DNA from: a virus
Lineage: Duplodnaviria; Heunggongvirae; Uroviricota; Caudoviricetes
DNA length: 42,795 bases
Virus record (IMG/VR): IMGVR_UViG_2526164634_000009
Direction: 5' to 3' (one strand)
A program made the translations under genes and the position numbers. The notes beneath the pieces were generated by a model, which was not told the origin of the DNA, searched no databases, and saw only the letters and a list, made by a program, of their open reading frames with translations. Shown piece by piece: positions 1 through 38,077 of this stretch; the stretch's first letter is position 1; every line of letters begins with the position of its first letter.

Positions 1-267
1 GCTGATGATTCAGGAAAGTGGATGTTTAAGGATGGAGCTGTAGTTAAACGGATTTATACAGCAGACGAACAGCAACAACAGGCCGAATCACAAAAGGCCG
101 TATTGCTTTCCGAAGCTGAATCAGTCATCCAGCCGCTGGAACGCGCTGTCAGGCTGAATATGGCAACAGACGAGGAACGCACACGACTGGAAGCATGGGA
201 ACGCTACAGTGTTCTGGTCAGCCGTGTGGATACGGCAAATCCTGAATGGCCACAAAAGCCTGAATAA
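1..267 (+). CDS. Tail fibre assembly protein, alternative copy (Mu U'-like), 5' end outside window
   Basis: Frame open from position 1; C-terminal sequence [13 protein letters not shown]...EWPQKPE parallels the minus-strand Tfa at 296-829 ([13 protein letters not shown]...FPEQPE); opposite orientation as in invertible tail-fibre segments. Confidence 0.7.
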
Positions 268-272
268 AAATT

Positions 273-292
273 AAGGCCCGCTATCGGGCCTT
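273..292. terminator. Hairpin between convergent Tfa genes (AAGGCCCG-CTAT-CGGGCCTT), likely bidirectional terminator
   Basis: Perfect 8-bp stem, 4-nt loop, T-rich tract on minus strand after stem. Confidence 0.5.
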
Positions 293-295
293 GTC

Positions 296-829
296 TCATT
301 CAGGTTGTTCGGGAAATGTTACTGGCAGGCTGGAGGTGTCTGTAGATTCGACTTTCTGCGCATAGAGCATCCACTCAGTTAATTTTTGTTTATTCTCGTC
401 GGAAATGATGCCCAGCCGTAGCTGTGAGTCCCATAGCTGGGTTTTATCCCTGACAAGTTGCAACAGGCTTTGCTTTTCATTCTCTGCCTGCTGCCTCTGT
501 TCCTCCTCGGTATAAGTTCGCTTTATCACTACGCCATCTTTGAACATCCATTTACCCGAAATATCAGCCCGGCGATTTGCTGTAATATCAGGAACCTCAA
601 CGACGCTTGCGCCTTCTGGATTAATTGCTGAAACATCCTTTTCAATACAAATAATACCGTTGTTGTGGTCATAGACCATTTTCAACGTATCAGGCTGAAA
701 GTTCTTTTGTTCCTCATACCAGTTTTTCCCATCCTCTGTATAAAGCCATTTGATGTTAAATTGTTTCGTTAGCTGGTATTGCTCTTTTGTTTTAGGGTTG
801 CCAGCAGTAATATTTTTTAAGTGCATCAT
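296..829 (-). CDS. U: Tail fibre assembly protein (Mu U / Tfa family)
   Basis: 177-aa ORF directly downstream of tail-fibre gene; conserved Tfa C-terminal region. Confidence 0.8.
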
Positions 830-831
830 AA

Positions 832-2292
832 TTAAATACTCCCCGCGTTATACCACGTTCCATTAATGCAATACTGAATTGGCCTTGCCTGAGTTGTATC
901 AATTAATTCATCACGGTTTCCGTTAACTGAACCCGTAACGACATAACCTGACCTGTCAGACCAGCCGGGACCATTCCATGTCTGAACAGATGACAGACCG
1001 CCAAGGCGAATACCTGTAATAAACCTTGAGTTACATTCTGCCTGCGTATATGCTCCAACATCTCCCGCAGAGGGTTTGCGGGTTGTGGTGTAAAACTCTG
1101 ACCAGTCAGCTTCAAAGCCATAACCATCTCGCGCTGAACGATAATAAATACCGCCGTTCTTATAATTCACACGGAACTGAACCGCCGGGCAACTCCCCGC
1201 ATTCATATTAAAGTGAAGAATCAATGTTGACGCTCCACTAATAGTCGCATTATAAACGCCGCTATTTGAGTTCCATCCAACAGCTTTGTCATTTCCAACA
1301 GTGCTTCCTGTCTGCCCTAAAGCAAATGCAGGCTGCTGGTTTTTCGTGTTGTAGTCTCTTCGCCAGCCAGGAGCATAAGCATCACCATGATTAATATAAG
1401 TGAATTGAGCGTTAGTAATTCCGCCACCGCTGGACATGCTCGGGGTGGTTACACGGATGGTCATGGCACCTTTATTACCCATAACCTCAATAACGCAACC
1501 TGCAAGATGAATAGTTCCACAGCCAGTATCGGTAATAATTTTATTATTGCCGTATGACCATGAACATTTGCACATCCAGTATGGGTGATTGAATGCCCCT
1601 TGAGAATCCAGCCATTCAATCAATTGTGCCGTCGTCCAGTTTCCTGCACCTGTGCTAATAGCACCATGAAAAGAGCGGCAAGCACCTATTGTTTGCGTAA
1701 ATTTATCTTTGTTTGGAATATCTGCGCCGTTCTGGTTTTTCTGTAATGCGCCAGAAGCCTGATTTACCGTTTCCTGTAAACCGACGTTTTGGATAAACAG
1801 CGGCTTATTGGGAATATCTGCTCCGTTCCGGTCTTTTGCCAGACGAGCATTGGCATTATCCATCGCAATTTTCACCGCTTTTGCGGTGGCTGCCAACGTT
1901 TCACTGGGGCTGTCAGTGGCACTGGTTAGCTGAACGAGTCCTTTTTTGTTCAGGCTGGCATCATAGATATCCAGATTTTCACGTGCTGTACGCTGTGCTG
2001 ATGCCCCGGCAGTTTTAATTTCGCTGAGGTTATTTTTTATCAGCAGCGCGTTATTGCTCATAATGGCTTTAATGGACAGTGCAAGCTGGTTTAATTTTGT
2101 TTTATCCGGTTGAATACCGGCTTCTTCCAGCGTGTTTAATAACTCCGCCTGAACAATATTAAACCAGTCCATGCCGGGCCATGTGATAACATTATTCCCG
2201 TCACCTTCTGAAAACCAGCGAACGATAGCACTACGCTGGGCGGATACGGGCGGCATGACGGTTACGCCGCTGTCGTTATCAATATAAAACAT
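832..2292 (-). CDS. S: Tail fibre protein (Mu S-like; constant N-terminal part 2292-~1797, variable C-terminal part inside invertible segment)
   Basis: 486-aa ORF, Gly/Asn/Thr-rich C-terminal region typical of fibre tips, position after baseplate genes, gix-like site within ORF. Confidence 0.8.
1771..1796. other. gix/hix-like crossover site for a Gin/Hin/Pin/Cin-family serine invertase
   Basis: TTCCTGTAAACCGACGTTTTGGATAA: imperfect 26-bp dyad with AAACC / GGTTT half-site cores, matching remembered gix consensus at all but about one position. Confidence 0.6.
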
Positions 2293-6062: not shown

Positions 6063-6843
6063 TAATCACCTCAATACTGACACCACCGGGAACAAACAAC
6101 GGGTTGCTGATACCGTTCCTGCGGGCCAGCCGTTGCCAGTTCCGGCTGTTTCCTGTGTAACGGTACAGGGCCACCATTGCAGGCATCGTCTCCGGCAGGC
6201 GGTGCGTTTCACTGCCCGCCAGTTGCAGCCCGCGTTTTTCCAGGTCGGCAACAACCAGCAGACGCAGTTGCGTAAGCTGAACGCTGTCTGTCGAAAAGCC
6301 CTGCTCAGATGCCGTCAGAATGACGGTATCCAGTGCAGCCCCCAGCATGGCGGCTGTTTTTCCGATATCGGACACACTTTCAAATACCGGGGGCGTGGCT
6401 GTACCACTGTCTGAAAAGGATACCTGTGAAAAACCGCCGTCCGGGGTTATGGCAGTTAACTGTAACTGTCCCTGTGTGACGGTAGCGGATGTGCTGCTGG
6501 CCCCGATGGCTGTGCCGGTTGTGGTGGACGGGGCATCCAGTACAGGTGCACGGGCGGCATTATCCATCCGGCGACTGAAATCCAGTGCCGCAGTCAGTGC
6601 CTGGCTGGCAGCTTCTGCCCGGTATGTCTGCGCCGCTGCCAGCATGACGTAGTTCAGTGTGGCAATATTTTTTTCTGCAACCGGACTGTTGTACGAGGTT
6701 GTGATTGTCCCCTGTCTGCCTGCGGTGGCAGCATGGCGACGTTCGAATCGCTGCGCCAGACGGTTCCATGTGGAAAATGCTGTCCGGGTATCGCATAACG
6801 ATGAAAGTAAGCGTGCAGCAAGAACCGTATTGACGGGGATGTG

Positions 6844-8382
6844 TTATTCAGTCGGCAGTGCTACGCGCCAGGGGAGCAGTTCGCCGACCCGGTTTATCGG
6901 CCAGTCGGCTATGACGTCAAGGACATAGCGGAGGTAGCTTTCTGGCTCCACTCCGTTCAGTTTGCACGTCCCGATCAGGCTGTACAGCAGCGCTCCCCGC
7001 TCTCCTCCATGATCCGAACCGAAGAACAGGTAGTTTTTGCGGCCCAGACTGACCATCCGCAACGCATTTTCAGCGATGTTATTGTCCGCCTCAGCCCAGC
7101 CATCATCTGCATAGTACGTCAGCGCCGGCCACTGGTTCAGGGCGTATGCGAACGCTTTCGCCAGTTCTGAGTGTCGCGACAGGGTTTTCATCTTTTCACG
7201 CAGCCAGCTTTCCAGGGATTTCAGCAGCGGTTTCGTTTTCAACTGACGTTCGGCAAGGCGCTGCTCCGCCGTCATTCCCCTTATCTCTGCCTCGATGGCG
7301 TACAGTTCGCCGATCCGTTTCAGCGCTTCCTCCGTCAGGGCTGACGGGGTGCGAACGTGCACATCGTGGATTTTACGGCGGGCGTGAGCCCAACAGGCGG
7401 CTTCCGTTATCCGGCCATCCCGGTACAGCTCGTTGAACCCGGCGTATGCATCCGCCTGCAGTACACCACTGAACCCCGCAAGATGGGTCTGCGGATGGAT
7501 GCCTTTTCTGTCCGGGCTGTAAGCGAACAACACCGCCGGCGCCAGCGTTGACCCGGCGTTACGGTCGTCACGAACGTAGGTCCATAACCGCCCGGTCTTC
7601 GTTTTCTTATTGCCTGGCAACAGCACCGGGACAGGCGTGTCATCAGCATGGAGCTTACCGTCAGTCAGCACATAGTCCTGAAGCGCTTCTTCCAGCGGTG
7701 ACAGTAGCCGGCAGCATGCATCCACCCAGCCCGACAGCAGTGAACGACTCAGCTCCACGCCCTGGCGGCCGTACATTTCAGACTGGCGGTACAGCGGGGT
7801 GTGCTCTGCATACTTTGAGATCAGCACGCGGGCCAGCAGCCCCGGTCCTGCGATACCCCGCTCGATGGGCCGTGAAGGCGCGGGGGCCTGCACGATGGCA
7901 TCGCACTGAGTACAGGCATGCTTTTCACGTACAGTCCGGATAACCCGGAAGGCGCTGCGCATCAACTCCAGCTGTTCGGCGGCATCCTCACCCAGATAGC
8001 TCAGTGAGCCTCCACATTCCGGGCAGCATGATGCTGCCGGCAGCAGCCGTTTTTCATCGCGGGGGAGTGATTCGGGGAACGGTTTGCGGGTGCGGGTTTG
8101 ACGCAGCGGGCGCTGCACGGCCGGGTCGTCAACCCGACCGGTAAGGGTATCACTTTCTTTCTGAAGTGCCTTCAGGTCAGCTTCCATCTGTGCGATACGA
8201 CGGGAGACTTTTTCGGAGCGGCTGCCGAAGTTCATCCGGCGCAGCTTATCCAGCTGTGCCTGCAGATGGTCTATTTCGCGTTCACGCTCGTTCAGCTTTT
8301 CCAGCAGGGCACGGTTCAGCGCCTCCTGTTCGGCAAGGAGACGTTTCAGTGCATTGATATCGTCAGGAAGTGAGCTGCTCAT
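6844..8382 (-). CDS. tnpC: IS66-family transposase TnpC
   Basis: 512 aa; N-terminal coiled-coil, CxxC...CxxC zinc-finger segment, DDE-type core. Confidence 0.9.
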
Positions 8383-8430
8383 ACCGGGTATATTACCAGG
8401 CTCATTCAGCGTCGACCAGGATAAAGAGGC

Positions 8431-8778
8431 TTACAACATAGTCAGGGACGTAAGCAGTCTTTTAGGCTGCCGCCAGTCGATACCTTCCAGCAGCATCGCC
8501 AGCTGTGCCGGTGTGAGGAACACTTTGCCATCCCGGGCTGACGGCCAGGCGAAGCGGCCGCGCTCCAGCCGTTTGGTCAGCAGACACAGTCCATCGCCGG
8601 TAGACCAGAGGAGCTTTACCTGACTGCCATTACGCCCACGGAAGATAAAAACGTGACCTGACATCGGATCGTCTTTCAGCGTCGTCTGCACCTTTGCCGC
8701 CAGGCCGTTGAAGCCGTTTCTCATATCGGTGATGCCAGCGACCAGCCAGATCTTTGTCCCTGATGGTAATGGGATCAA
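8431..8778 (-). CDS. tnpB: IS66-family accessory protein TnpB (Orf2)
   Basis: 115 aa, MIPLPSGTKIWLVAGITDMRNGFNGLAAKV motif typical of IS66 Orf2. Confidence 0.9.
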   Translation of the reverse strand: MIPLPSGTKIWLVAGITDMRNGFNGLAAKVQTTLKDDPMSGHVFIFRGRNGSQVKLLWSTGDGLCLLTKRLERGRFAWPSARDGKVFLTPAQLAMLLEGIDWRQPKRLLTSLTML

Positions 8779-9179
8779 CGTTTGAGCTCCCGTATCAGCA
8801 GGTTCAGGATATTTTCGCTGATGGCACCATTCAGACGGAGTGATCCGTGCCGGAACGTCACTTCACAGCTGATATTGAGTGATTCAGGTGTCGCAGCAGC
8901 TACAGGTTGTGACCGGGGGGAGGTTGTAGGGACAACATCTTCGGCATCAAGTGTTATCGGGAGCAGCTCAGGCACGTTGTTTTCTGTTGTTGAAGGAGGA
9001 CGTAGTTTTCCTTCGCGCCAGTACTGGCGCCACTTGAACAGCAAATTATCGTTGATCCCATGCTCACGAGCGAGTTGCGCTACGGAGATCTCTGGTCGAT
9101 GCGAGAGTTCAACCATTTTGATTTTGAACTCAACGGGATAATTAGGGCTTTTTTTACGCACTGCGGTTAATGATTTCAT
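8775..9179 (-). CDS. tnpA: IS66-family accessory protein TnpA (Orf1), HTH
   Basis: 134 aa, overlaps tnpB start by 4 nt as in IS66 elements. Confidence 0.85.
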   Translation of the reverse strand: MKSLTAVRKKSPNYPVEFKIKMVELSHRPEISVAQLAREHGINDNLLFKWRQYWREGKLRPPSTTENNVPELLPITLDAEDVVPTTSPRSQPVAAATPESLNISCEVTFRHGSLRLNGAISENILNLLIRELKR

Positions 9180-10008
9180 GGATAGCGTCCACCATATTTG
9201 GTGTCCACTATTCTCTCAGGAATTTCAGGATCTGCCAGACGGTGCTGAGACGACGCTTACCGATGAAACGCCGGACAGCGCCCCCATCAGCGAGGAGGCC
9301 AGCATGGCAGGCTGGTTAATCAGGCTGGTCACAGAGCCTTTCATCGCAGAAAGCGATCCCATCAGACCGCTGACAGTCTGCGTAACCCCCAGATTGTCCA
9401 CCGCATCACTGATATCATCGATGACACCGGTTACAGCTTCCATCACGGCGGTTGCCGCCGCAGTGCCATCTTTTACGGTCTGCCAGACAGAGGACAGCGT
9501 ATCTCCCAGAGAACCGGTTACAGCAACGGCCTGTGCCGGTACGGCTGCACTGGTGTCTGTCTCTGCGTCCGGGGCAGTATCCTGCAACGACGGATAAACG
9601 GTAACGGTGAACGCGTAATAATTCAGTTCATCCGCTTTAGTGCGGCATTCCCATGAATCCACCATGACGTCCACAGTGCCGAAATCAGGATGTACCAGCT
9701 CACCGCTACCCGGAGCATCAAGAGCATCCATCAGCGCACCCGCTTCATCTCTGGCTGTTTCTGCGTTGCTGTTCAGAATGCAGGCGCTGAATGTACGGGA
9801 GCGAAGCTTTTTCCCCAGGTCATTGACGCCGCCGGTATCACGTAACGGGTACTCGCGTTTAACCAGGCGACGTCCGCCAGCCTGTTTTTGCTCCTCGATG
9901 ACGAGAAACGGCACGTTACGGAACGTGCCTTTGCCGGTTGTTTTCCTGCCTCCACCGGTTTTATCCCGGACAGCATTAACGACATTTAAAGCATCTTCAA
10001 ACATGGTT

Positions 10009-26261: not shown

Positions 26262-26381
26262 TTAACAGACAAAAAGATACACCACGGCACTGATGGTTAT
26301 CAGAACCACAAGGGCAATCACTTTTATCGCATTAATCAGCGTGGACGGCCCGAAACATTCATCACTGAATTTTCTGTACAC
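26262..26381 (-). CDS. Candidate small hydrophobic peptide (GTG start, about 39 aa)
   Basis: Open frame with AAGGA upstream, ending in hydrophobic stretch LINAIKVIALVVLITISAVVYLFVC; below ORF-track size cut-off. Confidence 0.25.
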   Translation of the reverse strand: MYRKFSDECFGPSTLINAIKVIALVVLITISAVVYLFVC

Positions 26382-26592
26382 AATATTTTTCCTTATAACG
26401 TTGACAGTGGTGAAGAATTTCCGGCATATCAACTGACTGCCAGCCTTTCATGTAATAACTGCCGTGGGTGCCATCGTGCCCTGTGTAATCCATTGGCTTT
26501 GGTGGTGGGCCTCCGGCCTCCCGATGTAATACCTCCTGTCGTAAACGTTCACGCCTGCCGAACTGAAAGGACGCATCCCACCCTTTACCCAT
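26362..26592 (-). CDS. Hypothetical 76-aa protein translationally coupled to GH108 gene
   Basis: ATG at 26592 overlaps GH108 stop (ATGGGTAA arrangement). Confidence 0.3.
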   Translation of the reverse strand: MGKGWDASFQFGRRERLRQEVLHREAGGPPPKPMDYTGHDGTHGSYYMKGWQSVDMPEILHHCQRYKEKYCVQKIQ

Positions 26593-27145
26593 GCAGAACC
26601 TCCCGACAGGCGCTGGCGAGCAGATCCAGACGGTTAAACCAGCCATTCAGATATTTCCCCTGCGAGGCACTGGATTTGATAATCCCTGCGTAATAGCGGG
26701 AACGACGCAGGAAGCACTGCAACAGCAGCCAGTCAGTATCGGCACGCAGAACGGCTGCGCGTGTGTTTTTACCGACGATGCCATCATCATCAACACCTGC
26801 TGCCGCCTGGAGGATCTGAATCGCGCGTTTAACACCGTGCTGAACGGCAGCATCAAAAACGAATAAGGAAACGCCATCAGGCCATTCGTTACACTTTGCC
26901 GCCAGCCAGTAATCACGCCAGTAGATCTGCGCCGCCTGCTCGCGGGTTAAATCCTTAATGCGGGTATCAGGTTTTCCGTCACCGTTAACATCGGTTTTGC
27001 CATCAATAACGCCGTCGCGACGGTCAGAAATACCGTATTTCGTTTCGCCGCCACGGTCGGCAGGATCATTAACATAGCCACCTTCAACATCAGGGCGTAT
27101 AACGAAATTCAGCGAATGAAGGAATGCAGGGGAAAACTCAGGCAT
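26585..27145 (-). CDS. Glycoside hydrolase family 108-like muramidase with C-terminal peptidoglycan-binding domain
   Basis: N-terminal EGGYVNDPADRGGETKYGI motif characteristic of GH108; strong RBS AGGAGGG; first gene after terminator that follows mor. Confidence 0.65.
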   Translation of the reverse strand: MPEFSPAFLHSLNFVIRPDVEGGYVNDPADRGGETKYGISDRRDGVIDGKTDVNGDGKPDTRIKDLTREQAAQIYWRDYWLAAKCNEWPDGVSLFVFDAAVQHGVKRAIQILQAAAGVDDDGIVGKNTRAAVLRADTDWLLLQCFLRRSRYYAGIIKSSASQGKYLNGWFNRLDLLASACREVLHG

Positions 27146-27204
27146 GTTGCCCTCCTGTCATGAACGTTTTATCGTCACAACAGAATATTGAGGGCGTAAA
27201 AAAA

Positions 27205-28183: not shown

Positions 28184-28205
28184 AGGCGGTGCTGCAACAC
28201 CGCCT
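28184..28205. other. Perfect hairpin AGGCGGTG-CTGCAA-CACCGCCT just upstream of gemA RBS
   Basis: 8-bp stem, 6-nt loop. Confidence 0.4.
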
Positions 28206-28234
28206 GAATTTACACATCAATCAGAGAGGATTTT

Positions 28235-28501
28235 ATGGAAAATAATGTACAACCTTATGATGTTGCAGGTTATGCGATTGCATCAGCACTGGTGCGCCTT
28301 CTGGTGAAGAAGGCGATCATCACCGCAGAAGAGGGCCAGGCCATTTTCAGCTCTTCAGCAGAGATTTTAAAAGATGCGCCTGCAATAAGAACAAGCCGCC
28401 GCGAAAACATGCAACTGTCAAAGATCATGGAAGACATTATCAGTTCGTTAGACCCAGATGCTGACGGATCTCAAAAGCCTCAAACACATGAGCGTCAGTA
28501 A
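28235..28501 (+). CDS. Hypothetical 88-aa protein encoded antisense to the early operon
   Basis: ATG preceded by AGAGGA; lies in a 274-bp stretch with no minus-strand ORF of 60 aa or more. Confidence 0.4.
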   Translation: MENNVQPYDVAGYAIASALVRLLVKKAIITAEEGQAIFSSSAEILKDAPAIRTSRRENMQLSKIMEDIISSLDPDADGSQKPQTHERQ

Positions 28502-28742
28502 CAATATCCTGGTCTGATAACCCCAGCCTGCGGCGGATGTACTCCTCGCGGGCTGTTTCATTTTGCAGTGCCACTACTGTTTCCAGACGATTCATTTCGC
28601 GGTTGATAATGTCACGGACTTCTCTGGCGGTGAGATTATGCTTAATACCATATTCAACGATAGCGCGAACACGTTCCAGCATCCCTTTTTCAGCCATGAC
28701 GTTATCAATATTAAGGGGAGTAAATTTATCTTCATTGTTCAT
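28440..28742 (-). CDS. Hypothetical early protein
   Basis: 100-aa ORF in operon context. Confidence 0.5.
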   Translation of the reverse strand: MNNEDKFTPLNIDNVMAEKGMLERVRAIVEYGIKHNLTAREVRDIINREMNRLETVVALQNETAREEYIRRRLGLSDQDIVTDAHVFEAFEIRQHLGLTN

Positions 28743-29062
28743 TTTGCGGCCCTCAGAATAAATTCAGGATAAAATTTCAGACTCATTTGCCGTAACACAT
28801 CCAGTGCAGCAACGGCTGCTGATTTATCGTTGCCATCAGCAATAGCGCGGAGATTTTCAATAATCCAGTGAGGACTCAGTGACTCAGCAATAATGCCAAA
28901 CCGGTACGCCATGACCTCATCAATAGCTTTTTCATGAGACGGCTCATATACAAAATTCACAAAGTCATGCACTTCTTTTTTCGGCAAACCACCGGCAATC
29001 AGCAGGGCGGCAAGCTCTTCTGATTTTGAAAATACACCATTATTCATGTCACTCACCTTCAC
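28739..29062 (-). CDS. Hypothetical early protein
   Basis: 107-aa ORF, 4-nt overlap with neighbour. Confidence 0.5.
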   Translation of the reverse strand: MKVSDMNNGVFSKSEELAALLIAGGLPKKEVHDFVNFVYEPSHEKAIDEVMAYRFGIIAESLSPHWIIENLRAIADGNDKSAAVAALDVLRQMSLKFYPEFILRAAK

Positions 29063-32168: not shown

Positions 32169-33225
32169 GGCTTTGTTGAATAAATCAGATTTCGGGTAAG
32201 TCTCCCCCGTAGCGGGTTGTGTTTTCAGGCAATACGCACGCTTTCAGGCATACCTGCTTTCGTCATTTTGTTCAGCGCTCGTACCAGGGCCATAGCCTCT
32301 GCAACCTGACCATCGTAGTCACGCAGTGTCAGTGAACCTCCGAACAGCTGTTTTACCCGGTACATCGCCGTTTCCGCTATCGAGCGACGGTTGTAATCTG
32401 TTGTCCATTTCCACCGCGCATTACTCCCGGTCATTCGCTGATTAGCCACTGCACGGTTACGGTCTGCATATTCACCGGGCCAGTAACCCGCACCTTTTCG
32501 GGGAGGGATAAGGGCGCTGATTTTCTTACGCCGCAGTTCATCGTGACAGAGCCGGGTGTCGTAAGCGCCGTCTGCCGATGCTGCCCTGATTTTTCTGTGA
32601 GTCTGCCGGATAAGACCCGGGAAGGCTTCTGAGTCCGTTACGTTGTTCAGCGACAGGTCTGCACAGATGATTTCATGTGTGTTGCTGTCAACGGCCAGAT
32701 GCAACTTCCGCCAGATACGACGGCGTTCTTTGCCGTGTTTTTTGACTTTCCATTCGCCTTCACCAAAGACCTTCAGCCCGGTGGAATCAATCACCAGATG
32801 CGCGATTTCACCTCGGGTGAACGTTTTGAAACTGACATTAACCGACTTTGCGCGCTTGCTGACACTGGTGTAATCCGGGCAGCGCAACGGAACATTTATC
32901 AGTGTAAAAATGGAATCAATAAAACCCTGTGCAGCCCGCAGGGTCAGCCTGAACACGCGTTTAATGACCAGAACGGTGGTGATGGCGAGATCAGAATAGC
33001 GCTGAGGTCTTCCCCGTGATGAAGGCGTTGCCGACTCATACCAGGCCTGAATAGCTTCATCATCCAGCCAGAAAGTTATGGAGCCACGGTTGATGAGGGC
33101 TTTATTGTAGGTGGGCCAGTTGGTGATTTTGAACTTTTGCTTTGCCACGGAACGGTCTGCGTTGTCGGGAAGATACGTGATCTGATCCTTCAACTCAGCA
33201 AAAGTTCGATTTATTCAACAAAGCC
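32169..33225 (-). mobile_element. IS903-like element (IS5 family), 1057 bp, 9-bp target duplication CTTTAGTAC at 32160-32168 and 33226-33234
   Basis: Perfect 18-bp terminal inverted repeats GGCTTTGTTGAATAAATC, single transposase ORF, identical 9-bp flanking repeats. Confidence 0.9.
32225..33193 (-). CDS. tnp: IS903-type transposase (DDE); true start may be internal
   Basis: ORF contains FKITNWPTYNKALINRGSITFWLDDEAIQAWY region that I recognise as IS903 transposase. Confidence 0.9.
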   Translation of the reverse strand: MKDQITYLPDNADRSVAKQKFKITNWPTYNKALINRGSITFWLDDEAIQAWYESATPSSRGRPQRYSDLAITTVLVIKRVFRLTLRAAQGFIDSIFTLINVPLRCPDYTSVSKRAKSVNVSFKTFTRGEIAHLVIDSTGLKVFGEGEWKVKKHGKERRRIWRKLHLAVDSNTHEIICADLSLNNVTDSEAFPGLIRQTHRKIRAASADGAYDTRLCHDELRRKKISALIPPRKGAGYWPGEYADRNRAVANQRMTGSNARWKWTTDYNRRSIAETAMYRVKQLFGGSLTLRDYDGQVAEAMALVRALNKMTKAGMPESVRIA

Positions 33226-33240
33226 CTTTAGTACACATCG

Positions 33241-33468
33241 TTATCTCCAGATAATCTGGCAACCATTAAGACGGGCCGTCCATACAGAACGGGCCACCCC
33301 GGACTTATGCTCCATAATTCTGACCGCGTTTTTTACCAGTTCCACCGGTGGGTAAGTGATTTCAAGAATCGGACGCGCCACGCCGAGATATGATTCATTT
33401 ACATGACTCCCGCGCGCCTGTAACCAGTTCTGCGCATCCGTTGCCATTTTTATATTTCGGGCCATCAT
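33241..33468 (-). CDS. Small early protein immediately downstream of B (position of Mu kil)
   Basis: 75-aa ORF; position-based only. Confidence 0.4.
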
Positions 33469-33483
33469 AATTTCTTCTCCTTC

Positions 33484-34422
33484 TTAATTACGCAGCAGCG
33501 TTGAAATATCAACGTCCAGGTCTAATTCACGGAAAGCCTGACGCAGATAATCTTCGTTAACACGCTCACCTTTACCGTGAGCCGTCATGGCGGCAAGGCG
33601 AAGTGAATGATTCAGAATGCGAAGCGCACCTGGTTTCTGCGCAATCTGCTGTAATAACTCCAGTTCTTTTTCACCGTTAATCTGCCAGGCATCCGCAATA
33701 GCTTTTACATCGGCTTTTTTGGTTTTATTAATTGCAGTGCGCTTTGCAATACGGGAAAACAGACGGGCAAATTCAACCGTTCTGTTACCCCCCGTCATAT
33801 TTGAATAAACCCGGTGATTTCCCATCAGCACAAGGCCAATACGGGTTGATTCCTGTAACAGGCGGAGTTCTTCCAGAACCTCGGCACCAAGATGATCAGC
33901 TTCGTCGATGATAACCAGCCCCTGTGTACCTTCAAGGCGACGTCGCAGGGCGCGGGAGAGCGGCCCTTTACGGCGTGGTGCGTCATTCATTCCCAGCTCA
34001 AACGCCAGTTCAGTAAGACATTCCAGAACGCTGGCACAGGATGGCGTAATGGTGATCATCCAGACATTGTTATTGGTGCGGCGATATTCACGGGCCGCTT
34101 CGGTTTTACCCACACCAGGATTGCCACATACAACAGCAATACTTTCAGTCAGGCTGGCAAAACGCATACTTGTCCAGATTTGTTTTACCGTCTGCGTTTC
34201 CACAAAGCGGGGCGGCTCAGGTAGTTCTGCAACTGCATGATATTTTTCCAGCCAGCGTTGCAGAATTTGTGAAACACGCTCGTTATCCCCGTTGTACTTA
34301 TCATTGATAAAACTACTGATAGTTCCGGTAGAAAGCCCGCTCTCAAGAGCAATTTGTTTAAAGGTGGTTTCTTCATTTTCTACAAGCGTGCGCAGTTCTG
34401 CGCGAATATCGGAAATATTCAT
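33484..34422 (-). CDS. B: Transposition ATPase B (MuB-like AAA+)
   Basis: 312 aa, Walker A GNPGVGKT, follows A. Confidence 0.85.
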   Translation of the reverse strand: MNISDIRAELRTLVENEETTFKQIALESGLSTGTISSFINDKYNGDNERVSQILQRWLEKYHAVAELPEPPRFVETQTVKQIWTSMRFASLTESIAVVCGNPGVGKTEAAREYRRTNNNVWMITITPSCASVLECLTELAFELGMNDAPRRKGPLSRALRRRLEGTQGLVIIDEADHLGAEVLEELRLLQESTRIGLVLMGNHRVYSNMTGGNRTVEFARLFSRIAKRTAINKTKKADVKAIADAWQINGEKELELLQQIAQKPGALRILNHSLRLAAMTAHGKGERVNEDYLRQAFRELDLDVDISTLLRN

Positions 34423-34460
34423 CTGAATAACCTCGTAATTAAATTTTGTTTAAACGTTAA

Positions 34461-36554
34461 TTAAATGGCTTTTTTACGTCTGTTCTGTTCCAGAATATCC
34501 AGCGAATGATTCAGATATTCATCACGCTCAGTTTCGTATTCATCATCATGCTCTTCCTCACACCTCAACGGCTGAACGGTCACCACATTACCAACAGGGC
34601 GATAAACATTATCCAGCCAGGGTTCTATCGTTTTTTGTTCAATAACCTGAATACCTTCATCCTCAGCATCACGTATTTTTTCCTCAGCACGCTTGCGCAT
34701 TCCTTTAATACGTTGCTGTTGTTTGTGATATTCAGCCGTAACAGGAAAGGCTGCGCGTTTATTGCCGTTCCATATCGCCTCACAGATAAAGCTACCGTCC
34801 TTACGGCGTACCGTAATTCGCTCGGCATCGTGAATGTCATAGCTGATAAGTACCTTGCGACCATGTTCATCACGTAGCTCTGGCGCGTAGTAAATATTGT
34901 TCAGCCACTGGATTTCGCAGCGTCTTACCGGACGCTCCACCATCGGGCGGAACATGTCACGCAGCTCAATATCACTCAGCCACTCAATTTCAGTGTCTTC
35001 TTCCGCTAAGCGTTTTTTTCTGAACTCTGCCGGGCTGTAATGTTTTCCGTTTGGTTTCATCGGCAATTCAGAATGTGGGCGGTTGTTGTACCACTCCACC
35101 CCCTCACGGATAGCCTCAATCAGTTCTGACCAAGACGGCAGCTCGCGCATTGCGGCTTTCTGACGGGCGCTCAGTGGCTTGTCCTGTTGCAGGGCATTAA
35201 ACGCTGAACGCAGATCACGATTAAGTACTCGCAACGATTCCCGGTCAGCCCCCTTGCCGAAATAGGTGCGATACCTCCTTGCTATACGCATCGGTAACGT
35301 CCGGTTCAGGCGCTCAATAATGCCGCGTCCCTGCGGATTTCCCGCAATACCAGTGGGGTGGTTAATCCCCAGGCGGGGCAGAATCCCGACGATCTCTTTA
35401 TCCAGCATATCTGCCGTTTCACCGGAACCATTATCCGAGTAATACAGGAATGGTTTTCCGTGATTGCGAATGCCGTGTTGTATCGCCCCGGCAACAGCGA
35501 ACACGTTCTCCGCAAGATCAAGACTCCAGCCAACCACAAACCGGGTTCCACCGTCGATCACAAACGTAACTTCCGGTGAAAATGGACGCCCGTGAACCGG
35601 ATGCGCACATTTCAGCTTCATACCGTGACCGTCACCAATCCAGACATAATTCACCGGCATAGCTGTCCAGTCGCGGCGGGTGAATCCTTCAAGCTGACGG
35701 TATTCACTGCCGGTAACGCGCCCTTTTTGTTTCACCACTTCCGGCAGTTTTTTCATGGCATACCGGACAACATCATAGGAAGGCATCACCTCCAGCATGT
35801 ATGGTTCGTCCGCATGGCGACGCTGCCAATCAGCGACAAAATCCTCGTATGCTTCTGACATAGGCCTGCCGTTAGCCTGACGATACTGCGCCAGAAATTC
35901 AGGCAGCCAGCTAATTTCTTCCGGTTTTATTTCGTCGCGCTTTCCTGGTGCCAGTAACAGCAATCGTTCTGCGGCATTCTGTGCTTTGTTAAACGCAGCT
36001 ATCCAACGTTTGAGCGTAATTGCGCTCAGAGTTCGCTCTTTCCCTTTACGGGCATTAGCAGTAATGACCAAAGATTCCAGGCGTTCTTCCAGGTTACCCT
36101 GCGCTAACCGCGACACAATAAAACGTATAGCGCTGGCACAACTGAATCCCGGCTCCTGGCTAATTCGTAGAACTTCACAGACAAGAGCAATACGCGCTTC
36201 TGCAACTTTACGTTGATTTTCCGTAAGCGCATTCAGACGCTCTTCTACCAATTGTGGCGAACCGCGATATGCCTCAACAGGCTGTACAACATTTTGTTTG
36301 CGTTCACGCTTTACAGGAGGCTGGGTAGTTATCTCCTGCGGGGCGGTTGCCATCAGTTGAGCTACATGGCGCTCACGTAACGCCCGTTGTGTAACCGGAG
36401 GGAGGCAGTCGATGCTGTATTCAATGGTTTTTGAACCCGCACGTTTGCGCCTGAAATGCTCAGATGAGGCCAGTTTCCTTATGGAATACCGCACCCCTTG
36501 CGCAGTTCCCGGCATACCCGGTAGCCCTACAAGCTCATTAACTGACACAAACAT
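34461..36554 (-). CDS. A: DDE transposase A (MuA-like)
   Basis: 697 aa; C-terminal tail DDEYETERDEYLNHSLDILEQNRRKKAI matches Mu A as remembered, N-terminal DNA-binding region diverged. Confidence 0.9.
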   Translation of the reverse strand: MFVSVNELVGLPGMPGTAQGVRYSIRKLASSEHFRRKRAGSKTIEYSIDCLPPVTQRALRERHVAQLMATAPQEITTQPPVKRERKQNVVQPVEAYRGSPQLVEERLNALTENQRKVAEARIALVCEVLRISQEPGFSCASAIRFIVSRLAQGNLEERLESLVITANARKGKERTLSAITLKRWIAAFNKAQNAAERLLLLAPGKRDEIKPEEISWLPEFLAQYRQANGRPMSEAYEDFVADWQRRHADEPYMLEVMPSYDVVRYAMKKLPEVVKQKGRVTGSEYRQLEGFTRRDWTAMPVNYVWIGDGHGMKLKCAHPVHGRPFSPEVTFVIDGGTRFVVGWSLDLAENVFAVAGAIQHGIRNHGKPFLYYSDNGSGETADMLDKEIVGILPRLGINHPTGIAGNPQGRGIIERLNRTLPMRIARRYRTYFGKGADRESLRVLNRDLRSAFNALQQDKPLSARQKAAMRELPSWSELIEAIREGVEWYNNRPHSELPMKPNGKHYSPAEFRKKRLAEEDTEIEWLSDIELRDMFRPMVERPVRRCEIQWLNNIYYAPELRDEHGRKVLISYDIHDAERITVRRKDGSFICEAIWNGNKRAAFPVTAEYHKQQQRIKGMRKRAEEKIRDAEDEGIQVIEQKTIEPWLDNVYRPVGNVVTVQPLRCEEEHDDEYETERDEYLNHSLDILEQNRRKKAI

Positions 36555-36556
36555 TT

Positions 36557-36793
36557 TTATGCCACCTTACGAGCGTAACGGCTGGGCCAGATCTCCTCCG
36601 GCGCAACACCAATAGCATCAGCAATAATGCGCTCATATTTTGGGCATTTGCGGTACAGGGCATTCTTTAAAGAATCCTGGTTTAAACCGGCTTCAATGGA
36701 CAGAGAGCGTAAAGTAAAACCTTTTACATGCACCGCCGCGACAACATGCGCGGGGTGCCAGTCCTGTTTAACAACTTCATTTATAGACATCAT
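36557..36793 (-). CDS. ner: Ner-like DNA-binding regulator (start taken at internal ATG 36793)
   Basis: C-terminal IIADAIGVAPEEIWPSRY resembles Ner family; AAGGA RBS before internal ATG. Confidence 0.7.
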   Translation of the reverse strand: MMSINEVVKQDWHPAHVVAAVHVKGFTLRSLSIEAGLNQDSLKNALYRKCPKYERIIADAIGVAPEEIWPSRYARKVA

Positions 36794-36973
36794 TCGTTTA
36801 TCCTTAAAAGTTATCTGTGCGGATAACACCGCCGGATAATCTCTGCGGATAAAGTATTGATCCACATGTGGCGCATGTAAAGCAAAAATTTGATTTTCTT
36901 TTGCCTGATGTGGATCATCTGTGTTTTCTATTGAAATTATCCTTTTGTATCAATTAGATAAGAGGAAAGAAAA
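36794..36973. promoter_or_regulatory. Divergent early/repressor promoter-operator region
   Basis: Three CGGATAA repeats 13 bp apart (36818-36852) and inverted repeat TGATCCACAT / ATGTGGATCA (36858-36867, 36909-36918) between divergent ner and c. Confidence 0.5.
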
Positions 36974-37519
36974 ATGGATAAGCTGAAAGGAAAGTCACTT
37001 TCTTTGCCGGAAGTGACAAAAGAAAGTATCCCGGAGCGTTTGAGAGAATTAATTGGAAAAAGAAGTGTAAGGGCTGCTGCGAAAGATTGGGGGTTGTCTT
37101 TTTCTACTTTAAACAATTACCTGACGCGAGGTACTGAACCTTCACTCAGTGTGGCTCGGCAGATAGCTGCAATTGAAGGGGTTACTATCGAATGGATATG
37201 TGGATCACATGATGATTCATATGAGAATCACCCAATTTCAACTAACACGCATAATGAGAATACAAAACTCATTATGAACATCATTAACGCCTTGGATGCA
37301 AAGGATATTGAGCGACTATCTAAGACTCTTGCCCTCAATGGTGCTAAGTATCTGACTCAAATGTTGGAACCCGAAAATCAAGGCTTACTGCGTCTTGAAG
37401 GACGAAAACGTGTCGCCGCGCTGCTATTAGATGATTTACCTGATGAGCGTATCAGAGAGATTTTGGAAGAAATTGAGAGCAGCAAACTCTCAAGTAGTGT
37501 AAAATCGAGAGCGGGCTAG
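36974..37519 (+). CDS. c: Prophage repressor (c-like, HTH)
   Basis: 181 aa, divergent from ner, HTH-like segment near N-terminus. Confidence 0.7.
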   Translation: MDKLKGKSLSLPEVTKESIPERLRELIGKRSVRAAAKDWGLSFSTLNNYLTRGTEPSLSVARQIAAIEGVTIEWICGSHDDSYENHPISTNTHNENTKLIMNIINALDAKDIERLSKTLALNGAKYLTQMLEPENQGLLRLEGRKRVAALLLDDLPDERIREILEEIESSKLSSSVKSRAG

Positions 37520-37583
37520 TTCAATTAGCCCGCAGTGAACAGATTTTGAAGGCATTTAAAATGCTAAAATTGCAGTAACGCGT

Positions 37584-37745
37584 AGTATCAAATATTTTTT
37601 CGTTTTTAGCTTTCTTTGCGATGGTAGTATCAAATCGCATGTTGTGCGCATAACACTGTTTTATGTCATAACTGTTTGTTTTATCCCATCAAATCCCGTT
37701 TAATCCACTTTCCTCCCGGATTTTTCACCAGTATCAAATAATTTA
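37584..37745. repeat. Mu-like left-end attachment region with three AGTATCAAAT repeats (37584, 37626, 37730), candidate transposase-binding sites
   Basis: Spacing 42 and 104 bp mirrors Mu L3-L2-L1; adjacent tract (revcomp AAAAATCCGGGAGGAAAGTGGATTAAACGGGATTTGATGGGAT) resembles remembered Mu left end. Confidence 0.5.
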
Positions 37746-38077
37746 CCTCTCTATACGACTATGAGGAGAAATTGCTTATTGCCAGATGGGAACTGACAGC
37801 AGAACAGGCTGTTACACAGCAGTTAAAAAATGAGGTGTCAAAAGGAAAACTGATTGACACCGGGTTCTGTATTTTTGCCCTCAGTAAGCTGGCAATGGCG
37901 TTATCCAGTACGCTTGATTCCATCCCTTTATCCATGCAGCGACAGTTTCCTGATTTAACACCGCGCCATCTTGACCATCTGAAAACCATTATTGCGAAGG
38001 GGGCAAATCAGTGTGCGCGGGCAGGGGATAAATTACCGGATTTACTCGATGAATATATCAGAGCAACAACTGAATAA
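37742..38077 (+). pseudogene. nu1: Lambda-like terminase small subunit nu1, 3' fragment only (truncated by Mu-like prophage insertion)
   Basis: Frame opens only at 37742 after in-frame TAA; translated C-terminal part resembles lambda Nu1 C-terminus and overlaps A start as in lambda. Confidence 0.7.

What the first reader, a model, noticed from the sequence alone, without database searches (positions are those of the whole stretch)
36557..37745. Mosaic immunity/left-end module with a repeat-rich operator region
Gam and the C-terminus of A look essentially Mu-like from memory, yet the repressor, Ner, the A N-terminal DNA-binding domain and the terminal repeats are clearly diverged. That is the pattern expected for a heteroimmune Mu relative. 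The operator region carries three CGGATAA repeats 13 bp apart and a 10-bp inverted repeat pair 51 bp apart, which are candidate Ner and repressor sites.
Basis: partly seen in the sequence, partly recalled or inferred. Interest (0 to 1): 0.45.

Follow-up and report, generated by a model that had tools for sequence, protein, structure and literature searches.

The report
Swapped immunity/transposition module in Mu prophage

Summary
CGGATAA occurs at 36820, 36833 and 36846, exactly 13 bp apart. TGATCCACAT (36858-67) and ATGTGGATCA (36908-17) are an exact 10-bp inverted pair, 50 bp start to start. A third copy lies inside c.

The heteroimmune-mosaic interpretation is right in kind, but the boundaries are wrong. 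Window 1-34553 is about 98% identical to Mu and D108. Window 34554-37756 has no detectable nucleotide similarity to either. So A is foreign (28% identical to MuA) except for its last ~30 codons, which are Mu's.

The repressor is not a diverged Mu c. It has a lambda/434/P22-type HTH fused to a C-terminal domain remotely homologous to that of Mu c, and it has no similarity to the A N-terminus.

The same A and ner are in Yersinia phages vB_YpM_5/6, and about 300 E. coli genomes carry related A genes. The exact c allele is in 3 of 5426 complete E. coli genomes.

Eight related loci support the site assignment. The GATAA/TTATC array goes with Ner and sits just downstream of the early promoter. The GTGGATCA half-sites go with c, and one 18-bp palindrome fills the promoter spacer.

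It is a new member of a known kind, of modest interest. In passing: relatives make 4-bp, not 5-bp, target duplications.

The parts
34461..34553 (-). 3' end of gene A: about the last 30 codons, identical to MuA. The tail reads DDEYETERDEYLNHSLDILEQNRRKKAI. The recombination junction with the Mu backbone is at about 34553.
   Evidence: blastn to Mu and D108 stops at 34553. C-terminal alignment.
34554..36554 (-). Gene A, residues 1 to about 667. It is a transposase of a different Mu-like lineage, 28% identical to MuA. The N-terminal Mu winged-helix domain is retained.
   Evidence: It is 99.4% identical to vB_YpM_5 A and 91-100% identical, per 100-column block, to the strain S6 prophage A.
36557..36793 (-). 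ner (78 aa), a Ner-family HTH_35 protein.
   Evidence: Pfam PF13693, E 2.9e-25. 46% identical to Mu Ner and 48% to D108 Ner, 100% to vB_YpM_5 Ner. PDB matches: EnrR 3.6e-17 and Mu Ner 6e-13.
36811..36852 (.). Candidate Ner operator. Contains TTATC 36811-15 and GATAA at 36822-26, 36835-39 and 36848-52 (the cores of the three CGGATAA repeats at 36820, 36833, 36846). It can be read as two units: TTATC-N6-GATAA (36811-26) and TAATC-N6-GATAA (36837-52), with centres 26 bp apart. It covers about +1 to +36 of the Pe transcript.
   Evidence: It is kept with identical Ner where c differs (S6, vB_YpM_5) and rewritten where Ner differs (L021, L023).
36853..36881 (-). Candidate early promoter Pe. The -35 is TTTACA (36881-76), the spacer is 17 nt, the -10 is AATACT (36858-53). 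Transcription would start near 36846 and run towards ner, A and B.
   Evidence: Promoter scan. The same hexamers sit at the homologous place in L019 and L021 and in E2348/69.
36858..36875 (.). Candidate repressor operator 1: the 18-bp palindrome TGATCCAC-AT-GTGGCGCA, which fills the Pe spacer.
   Evidence: In relative L024 it is a perfect palindrome, TGATCCAC-TT-GTGGATCA.
36908..36917 (+). Candidate repressor operator 2: ATGTGGATCA, a half-site whose other half is poor. It lies 50 bp from operator 1.
   Evidence: The position and the 52-bp 8-mer spacing are kept in all relatives with this type of c DNA-binding domain and are absent in the S6 and E2348 types. S6 instead has CTACAAAAG twice, also 50 bp apart.
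36974..37519 (+). Repressor gene c (181 aa). Residues about 19-75 form an XRE/434-type HTH. Residues about 89-178 form a helical C-terminal domain remotely homologous to that of Mu and D108 c.
37198..37207 (+). Third exact copy of ATGTGGATCA, inside c. Possibly an auxiliary operator, possibly a coding accident.
   Evidence: It is kept in the 87% relative only.
37511..37533 (.). G+C-rich hairpin that overlaps the c stop codon. The T-run is on the minus-strand side only.
37582..37635 (-). Candidate transposase end-binding sites L3 (TTTGATAC at 37585-92) and L2 (37627-34), inside the 12-bp repeats GTAGTATCAAAT.
   Evidence: The same octamer occurs three times in the right ends of relatives.
37730..37756 (-). 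Candidate L1 site (TTTGATAC at 37731-38) and the prophage terminus. The + strand reads ...TTTACCTCTCTATA, with the last base at 37756.
   Evidence: Homology among five independent insertions stops after CTCTATA. Lambdoid Nu1 sequence follows.

Best explanation
The finding is the lysogeny and early-control region plus the left attachment end of a transposable Mu-type prophage. The prophage is a recombinant. Everything from the tail of A rightwards (B, kil, gam, late genes) is Mu or D108 at about 98%. The left end, c, the operators, ner and A residues 1 to about 667 come from another enterobacterial Mu-like lineage, whose relatives are widespread as E. coli prophages.

Proposed working:
- c binds GTGGATCA half-sites. 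It has a 434/P22-type HTH plus a Mu-c-like C-terminal domain and no LexA-type cleavage domain.
- One 18-bp palindrome occupies the 17-bp spacer of the early promoter Pe, so bound repressor shuts off ner, A and B. A second site lies 50 bp upstream of the first relative to Pe and probably acts cooperatively.
- Ner binds the TTATC/GATAA array that covers about the first 36 nt downstream of the Pe start. This throttles early transcription and, by analogy with Mu, probably c transcription as well.
- The foreign transposase binds three TTTGATAC sites arranged like Mu L1-L3.
- A keeps the Mu C-terminal tail, so it can work with the Mu-type B encoded downstream.

Shown: the gene identities, the mosaic boundaries, the repeats and their co-inheritance with the proteins. 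Inferred: who binds where, the promoter, and heteroimmunity.
For: Mosaic. blastn finds 98-99% identity to Mu and D108 up to 34553 and nothing in 34554-37756. B is 99% identical, A 28%, Ner 46-48% and c has no real match to the Mu or D108 proteins. The last 28 residues of A are identical to MuA, whereas strain S6 and other native members of the donor lineage have a different tail and their own B.

c. Weak HTH_3 and Phage_CI_repr Pfam hits. The model has five N-terminal helices, and its best fold matches are P22 c2, 434 Cro, SinR and DdrO, with target-normalised TM about 0.8 over about 62 residues. It matches phrog_3037 full length at 5e-58. Its C-terminal half matches the Mu/D108 c family phrog_7148 at 3.7e-6, and the reverse match also holds. 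hhalign gives E 2e-5 and 3e-6. There is no c-to-A similarity, whereas Mu and D108 give E 6e-15 and 4e-17 for the same comparison.

Sites. Loci with identical Ner but a different c (S6, 1290, vB_YpM_5) keep the GATAA array and lose the GTGGATCA pair. Loci with a different Ner but a similar c DNA-binding domain (L021, L023) rewrite the array and keep the pair at the same positions. Both junctions fall within about 12 bp, at the Pe -10. Pe hexamers are conserved. S6 has its own 9-bp repeat pair, also 50 bp apart and also starting in the Pe spacer. Ner relatives bind short AT-rich palindromes as paired monomers (PMC9023278).

Ends. TTTGATAC occurs three times in the left end and five times in the whole window, against 0.94 expected.
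Against: There is no binding or transcription data.

Co-inheritance of a site with the adjacent gene is partly what linkage alone would give.

Each repeat class alone is only modestly unlikely in this A+T-rich spacer: 147 and 118 of 5000 shuffles.

The recognition helix FSTLNNY is almost the same in c alleles that have different candidate operators, so what sets specificity is unexplained.

Operator 2 is only a half-site, and in JCKP02 it carries 2 SNPs.

No promoter for c was found.

This particular prophage carries two IS insertions and is probably unable to make phage.
Confidence: 0.7

Rival explanations
1. The assignment is the other way round: the CGGATAA array is the repressor operator and the GTGGATCA inverted repeat is the Ner site.
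For: D108 Ner is reported to bind inverted repeats (my own knowledge). The repeats alone do not say which protein binds them.
Against: Loci with 100% identical Ner and a different c keep the array and lack the inverted repeat. Loci with a different Ner and a similar c HTH keep the inverted repeat and rewrite the array. The array lies next to ner and downstream of the Pe start, where Mu Ner acts.
Confidence: 0.08
2. It is a simple D108-style heteroimmune Mu: only c, ner and the operator-binding N-terminus of A are exchanged, and the repressor and transposase N-termini remain paralogous.
For: A does keep a Mu-type N-terminal domain (PF02316; PDB 1tns at 5e-5).
Against: A is 28% identical to MuA across the catalytic and C-terminal domains, and there is no nucleotide match from 34554 onwards. 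c has an XRE fold and no similarity to A. The end repeats are TTTGATAC, not the Mu consensus.
Confidence: 0.03
3. The repeats are not regulatory sites. They are by-products of composition, of the ner ribosome-binding site, of promoter elements or of shared ancestry in an A+T-rich spacer.
For: CGGATAA is over-represented across the whole window, 20 copies against 4.2 expected. About 3% of shuffles give a 7-mer three times, and about 2% give a 10-bp inverted repeat. TTATCC at 36798-803 overlaps the ner Shine-Dalgarno sequence. The TGATC part of operator 1 is conserved in all immunity types.
Against: The exact 13-bp phasing was never seen in 5000 shuffles. The GTGGATCA 8-mers are conserved islands at fixed positions in relatives whose surrounding sequence has diverged. 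A heteroimmune allele has a different repeat pair with the same 50-bp geometry.
Confidence: 0.12
4. The module is a dead remnant: the prophage is defective and the control region no longer works.
For: An IS66-family element interrupts gene N, and an IS903-like element lies between kil and gene 6. The host lambdoid prophage is itself disrupted in Nu1.
Against: The c, ner, A and B reading frames are intact. Copies of the module at 99.7-100% identity sit at different chromosomal sites in three complete genomes, with fresh 4-bp duplications where testable. The same A and ner are in plaque-forming phages vB_YpM_5/6 (PMC10434027).
Confidence: 0.07

Closest known systems
Phage Mu / D108 immunity and early-control region (c, O1-O3, Pe/Pc, ner, attL L1-L3)
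   Same: Same gene order and orientation: end, c leftward, operators, then ner-A-B rightward. Ner is of the same family. The repressor C-terminal domain is remotely homologous. A has a Mu-type N-terminal domain and a Mu-transposase C-terminal domain. There are three end sites spaced like L1...L2-L3. The A tail and B are identical to Mu.
   Different: There is no nucleotide similarity. The repressor DNA-binding domain has a different fold and is not paralogous to the A N-terminus. The operators are different (GTGGATCA and GATAA). The end-site motif is different (TTTGATAC) and the termini read TA...TA. Relatives make 4-bp rather than 5-bp duplications.
Yersinia phages vB_YpM_5 and vB_YpM_6 (MT374853/4; PMC10434027)
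   Same: Same hybrid design: a Mu-like backbone with the same B (100%), A (99.4%) and Ner (100%), the same A/Mu-tail junction and the same GATAA array.
   Different: The c is another allele (56% identical, 194 aa). There is no nucleotide match over 36863-37309. Their candidate operators are CTACAAAAG repeats, so they are probably heteroimmune to the window element. The paper does not analyse this region.
Mu-like prophages of E. coli of the donor lineage (prophages in strains S6, 1290, E2348/69; O157-type prophages, probably Sp18-like)
   Same: Related A, about 78% nt identical in most of 301 genomes. Same Ner family, the same phrog_3037 repressor family and the same intergenic architecture.
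   Different: They carry their own A tail and their own B and late genes. The window element has Mu's. That the O157 hits are Sp18 itself was not checked.
434 / P22 c2 / lambda-type HTH repressors
   Same: The fold of the N-terminal domain, and a palindromic operator placed inside a promoter.
   Different: There is no S24 self-cleavage domain. The C-terminal domain is Mu-c-like, so RecA-mediated induction is not expected. The Mu-like prophage Sp18 is reported not to be mitomycin-inducible (PMC2669165).

Membership tests
Mu-like transposable phage (Muvirus-type genome) | DDE transposase A of the Mu family next to an AAA+ target activator B | tested here: met
   A matches PF09299 at 1.9e-18, PF02316 at 1.6e-6 and phrog_310 at 3e-200. 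B matches PF09077 at 5e-34 and is 99% identical to MuB.
Mu-like transposable phage (Muvirus-type genome) | Insertion at varied chromosomal sites with short target duplications | tested here: met
   Near-identical or related elements sit in ycjP, mscM, patD, ydcO, glpT and Nu1. Four insertions with both flanks show 4-bp repeats. The window's own right end lies outside the window.
Mu/D108 immunity design | Repressor DNA-binding domain paralogous to the transposase N-terminal (enhancer-binding) domain | tested here: not met
   The best c-to-A match has E 0.31 and is not at the N-terminus. The controls give 6e-15 for Mu and 4e-17 for D108.
Mu/D108 immunity design | Repressor of the Mu c family (phrog_7148) over its full length | tested here: not met
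   Only residues 86-175 match phrog_7148, at E 3.7e-6. The full-length family is phrog_3037. blastp against Mu and D108 c finds only a 15-26 aa motif.
Mu/D108 immunity design | Divergent c and ner-A-B units around a shared operator region, with a Ner-family protein as the first early gene | tested here: met
   ORF map. Ner matches PF13693 at 2.9e-25.
Mu/D108 immunity design | Immunity specificity (superinfection test against Mu and D108) | not testable with these tools
   Heteroimmunity is inferred from the unrelated repressor DNA-binding domain and operators.
XRE / 434-Cro-type HTH repressors | Five-helix HTH domain | tested here: met
   Model helices at 19-27, 32-39, 43-51, 58-68 and 72-75, with pLDDT about 80. 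Matches P22 c2 and 434 Cro at target-normalised TM 0.77-0.81 and rmsd about 1.5. The Pfam HTH_3 score is just under threshold, 21.5 against 23.
LexA/lambda-CI-type inducible repressors | S24 peptidase self-cleavage domain | tested here: not met
   No Peptidase_S24 hit. The C-terminal half is all-helical.
Ner family | Binding to the proposed GATAA/TTATC array | not testable with these tools
   Only comparative support and the binding mode of the homologue EnrR (PMC9023278).

The most novel reading that the evidence does not exclude
The donor lineage is a mechanistically distinct branch of Mu-like elements in two respects. First, its transposase joins ends that read 5'-TA...TA-3' with a 4-bp stagger instead of Mu's TG...CA and 5 bp. 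Second, its immunity no longer relies on a repressor that is a paralogue of the transposase enhancer-binding domain. In this reading the window element shows that such a module can be grafted onto the Mu B and morphogenesis backbone simply by keeping the ~30-residue MuA tail.
Probability: 0.35. Interest if true: 0.55.

Novelty: new member of a known kind. Interest (0 to 1): 0.33.

Why it matters
It gives a natural three-layer mosaic: backbone, transposition module and immunity allele. The junctions mark functional boundaries.
- One junction falls at the ~30-residue A tail that, in Mu, contacts B and ClpX.
- Two independent junctions fall at the -10 of the early promoter, between the Ner and repressor specificity units.

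This offers ready-made, testable operator predictions for an unstudied repressor family (phrog_3037) that is common in enterobacterial Mu-like prophages. It also shows that Mu-type immunity can run on a repressor whose DNA-binding domain is unrelated to the transposase.

In practice it affects superinfection immunity and typing of Mu-like prophages and phages, including the Yersinia phages proposed for applied use.

Tried and rejected
- Nucleotide comparison of 36400-37800 with all phage records found no match in any phage record other than the three Yersinia vB_YpM phages (the lambdoid PhiR12 phages matched only the Nu1 flank), so neither Mu nor D108 matched.
- The junction with Nu1 was searched for in 5426 complete E. 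coli genomes and is in none of them, so the source genome was not identified.
- A scan of one genome per species with c found only six distant loci, which were of little use.
- Sequence search of c against solved structures found nothing.
- IHF site: one consensus match, AATCAAATTTTTG at about 36884-96 on the minus strand, lies between the two c sites as in Mu. It is not conserved in any relative (read by eye), so I dropped it.
- Structured RNA in the c leader that would pair TTTTCTTT with AAAGAAAA: the z-score is 0.26 and the covariation term is unfavourable. The Rfam hit SpF14 scores 31.5 bits against a gathering score of 100 and is taken as chance.
- Promoter for c: none reached the scan threshold in the window or in three relatives.
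- A 5-bp duplication was tried at every insertion. It fits only S6, ambiguously, and fails for 1290, WS1933D and JCKP02.
- A literature search for 4-bp duplications in Mu-like phages found nothing relevant in the held library.

Full report
**What is in the window.** The window holds most of a Mu-type prophage on the minus strand. The G segment lies at 1-1796, B at 33484-34422, A at 34461-36554 and ner at 36557-36793. A 180-bp intergenic region follows, then c at 36974-37519 on the plus strand, and the prophage end at 37756. Beyond the end the sequence continues as the 3' part of a lambdoid Nu1 gene, followed by terminase, W and portal genes. The Mu-type element therefore sits inside another prophage.

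**Check of the observation.** The three CGGATAA copies are exact, at 36820, 36833 and 36846. The 10-bp inverted pair is exact at 36858-67 and 36908-17, 50 bp start to start. A third exact copy of ATGTGGATCA lies inside c at 37198-207.
- In 5000 dinucleotide shuffles of the intergenic region, a phased triple 7-mer never occurred.
- Any 7-mer present three times occurred in 147 shuffles.
- Any exact inverted repeat of 10 bp or more occurred in 118 shuffles.

The phasing is clearly non-random. Each repeat class on its own is only moderately unlikely.

**Mosaic structure.** blastn against complete Mu and D108 gives 98-99% identity for nearly all of window 1-34553. The exceptions are two insertion sequences and a few patches of lower identity. 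From 34554 to 37756 there is no match at all.
- At the protein level, B is 99% identical to MuB and Ner is 46% and 48% identical to Mu and D108 Ner.
- A is 28% identical to MuA over the catalytic and C-terminal domains and 36% over the first 63 residues.
- c has no real match to Mu or D108 c.
- The last 28 residues of A are identical to MuA.

From my own knowledge of Mu, that tail is the part of MuA that contacts MuB and carries the ClpX recognition signal. The junction thus keeps the A-B interface matched. Native members of the donor lineage (strain S6, L021, L023) have a different A tail and their own B.

**Where the foreign block comes from.**
- Yersinia phages vB_YpM_5 and vB_YpM_6 carry the same B, A and ner: 98.5% nt identity over 33226-36862, with Ner 100% and A 99.4% identical. 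They have no nucleotide match over 36863-37309 and 82% identity over 37310-37750. The paper describing them does not analyse this region.
- Related A genes are in 301 of 5426 complete E. coli genomes, mostly at about 78% nt identity, including many O157 strains.
- The exact c-plus-operator allele is in only 3 of the 5426 genomes, each at a different chromosomal site.
- The protein collection holds a 49-member cluster of this c and a graded series of relatives at 87, 83, 70, 65 and 64% identity.

**The repressor.** Pfam gives only sub-threshold HTH_3 and Phage_CI_repr hits. An AlphaFold model built from 49 homologues has a mean pLDDT of 74, a five-helix N-terminal domain and an all-helical C-terminal domain.
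- Foldseek places the N-terminal domain with P22 c2, 434 Cro, SinR, ImmR and DdrO.
- PHROGs assigns the protein to phrog_3037. Its residues 86-175 also match phrog_7148, which is the Mu/D108 c family, and Mu and D108 c reciprocally match the C-terminal part of phrog_3037.
- hhalign of the family profile against Mu c and D108 c gives collinear C-terminal matches, with E 2e-5 and 3e-6.

So c looks like a domain chimera relative to Mu c: a different DNA-binding fold on a related C-terminal domain. In Mu and D108 the repressor N-terminus is a paralogue of the A N-terminus (E 6e-15 and 4e-17 here). In the window element it is not (best E 0.31), although A still carries the Mu-type N-terminal domain.

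**Assigning the repeats.** I compared the intergenic regions of eight loci.
- Loci with the identical Ner but another c allele (S6, 1290, vB_YpM_5) keep the whole block up to TTGATC, including the GATAA array. They lack GTGGATCA.
- Loci with a clearly different Ner but a very similar c HTH (L021, L023) rewrite the array into other GTTAyC...GATAAC-like palindromes. They keep TGATCCAC and GTGGATCA at the same positions (-115 and -63 from the c start).
- The two kinds of junction fall within about 12 bp of each other, at the -10 of the predicted early promoter.

Linkage alone would make a site travel with its neighbouring gene. The coincidence of two independent junctions, and the conservation of the 8-mers amid diverged flanks, argue for two specificity units.

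**The promoter and the site geometry.**
- The promoter scan finds TTTACA-17-AATACT on the minus strand at 36881-36853. The same hexamers sit at the homologous place in relatives.
- The 18-bp palindrome TGATCCAC-AT-GTGGCGCA fills that promoter spacer. In L024 it is a perfect palindrome.
- The S6-type allele has its own pair of repeats, CTACAAAAG, also 50 bp apart and also starting in the spacer.
- The GATAA array covers roughly +1 to +36 of the early transcript.
- Comparison with E2348/69 and the second Ner type favours TTATC-N6-GATAA palindromes as the unit.
- This fits the way the Ner homologue EnrR binds short AT-rich palindromes as paired monomers (PMC9023278).

**Ends.** TTTGATAC occurs on the minus strand at 37731, 37627 and 37585. 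That spacing resembles Mu L1...L2-L3. The octamer also occurs three times in the right ends of relatives. This confirms that the terminal repeats differ from Mu.

**Limits.**
- Nothing here is a binding or transcription experiment.
- The promoter for c was not found.
- Operator 2 is only a half-site, and it carries the only two intergenic SNPs in strain JCKP02.
- The recognition helix is nearly invariant across alleles that have different candidate operators.
- This copy of the prophage is probably defective because of two IS insertions.

**Verdict.** It is a new immunity allele in a known kind of mosaic Mu-like element, and the same hybrid backbone is already represented by sequenced phages. 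Interest is modest. The more unusual points are the repressor that is decoupled from the transposase, and the 4-bp duplications with TA termini seen in four related insertions.

Noticed in passing
window 37756/37757; relatives L007+L011 (S6), L008+L012 (1290), L025+L026 (WS1933D), L029+L030 (JCKP02): Four independent insertions of this element type are flanked by 4-bp direct repeats (TTAA, TCAC, GGCT, CTTA), not Mu's 5 bp. The element termini read 5'-TAAAGCG...CTCTATA-3', i.e. TA...TA instead of TG...CA. The window's own right end lies outside the window.
   Followed up: partly
window 37757-38077 and onwards to 42795: The Mu-type prophage is inserted in the Nu1 (small terminase) gene of a lambdoid prophage, whose gpA, W and portal genes follow. 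None of 5426 complete E. coli genomes has this junction. Two Stx-phage records in GenBank carry the annotation 'region of the inserted Bacteriophage Mu-like phage'.
   Followed up: partly
window 6806-9254: An IS66-family element interrupts the Mu gene N homologue. Its ORFs, all on the minus strand, are 8775-9179, 8431-8778 and 6844-8382, and match HTH_Tnp_1, TnpB_IS66 and DDE_Tnp_IS66. The prophage is therefore probably defective.
   Followed up: partly
window 32169-33225: A 1057-bp insertion relative to Mu, D108 and vB_YpM_5 lies at the kil/gene 6 boundary. It carries a DDE_Tnp_1 transposase ORF (32225-33193, minus strand). Mu coordinates overlap by 9 bp across it, as expected for an IS903-like element.
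   Followed up: partly
window 1-1796: The G segment is in the opposite orientation to the Mu and D108 reference records. At 85-90% it is less similar to them than the rest of the backbone.
   Followed up: no
window 36859-62, 36913-16, 37203-06: Each of the three ATGTGGATCA copies contains a Dam methylation site (GATC). TTGATC next to the Pe -10 is conserved in all immunity types.
   Followed up: no
L029 (JCKP02), homologous to window 36908-36920: In a nearly identical element, the only two substitutions in the 180-bp intergenic region both fall in or next to candidate operator 2: GATGTGGATCATC becomes GATATGGATCACC. c has one change, P87L.
   Followed up: no
L006 and L010 (FDAARGOS_1059): The two flanks of this copy belong to unrelated genes (ycjP and an SDR oxidoreductase gene). 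This indicates a deletion or rearrangement next to the prophage.
   Followed up: no
window 36895-36904 and 36966-36973: CTTTCTTTTG, and its complement AAAGAAAA just upstream of the c start codon, are conserved across immunity types. RNA pairing is not supported. It could be a site for the A N-terminal domain.
   Followed up: partly
window 26378-27180 and 28204-29038: Patches of lower or absent identity to Mu and D108 lie within the early and middle region (about 79% over 26378-26593, with gaps around 26594-27179). These indicate further small mosaic exchanges.
   Followed up: no
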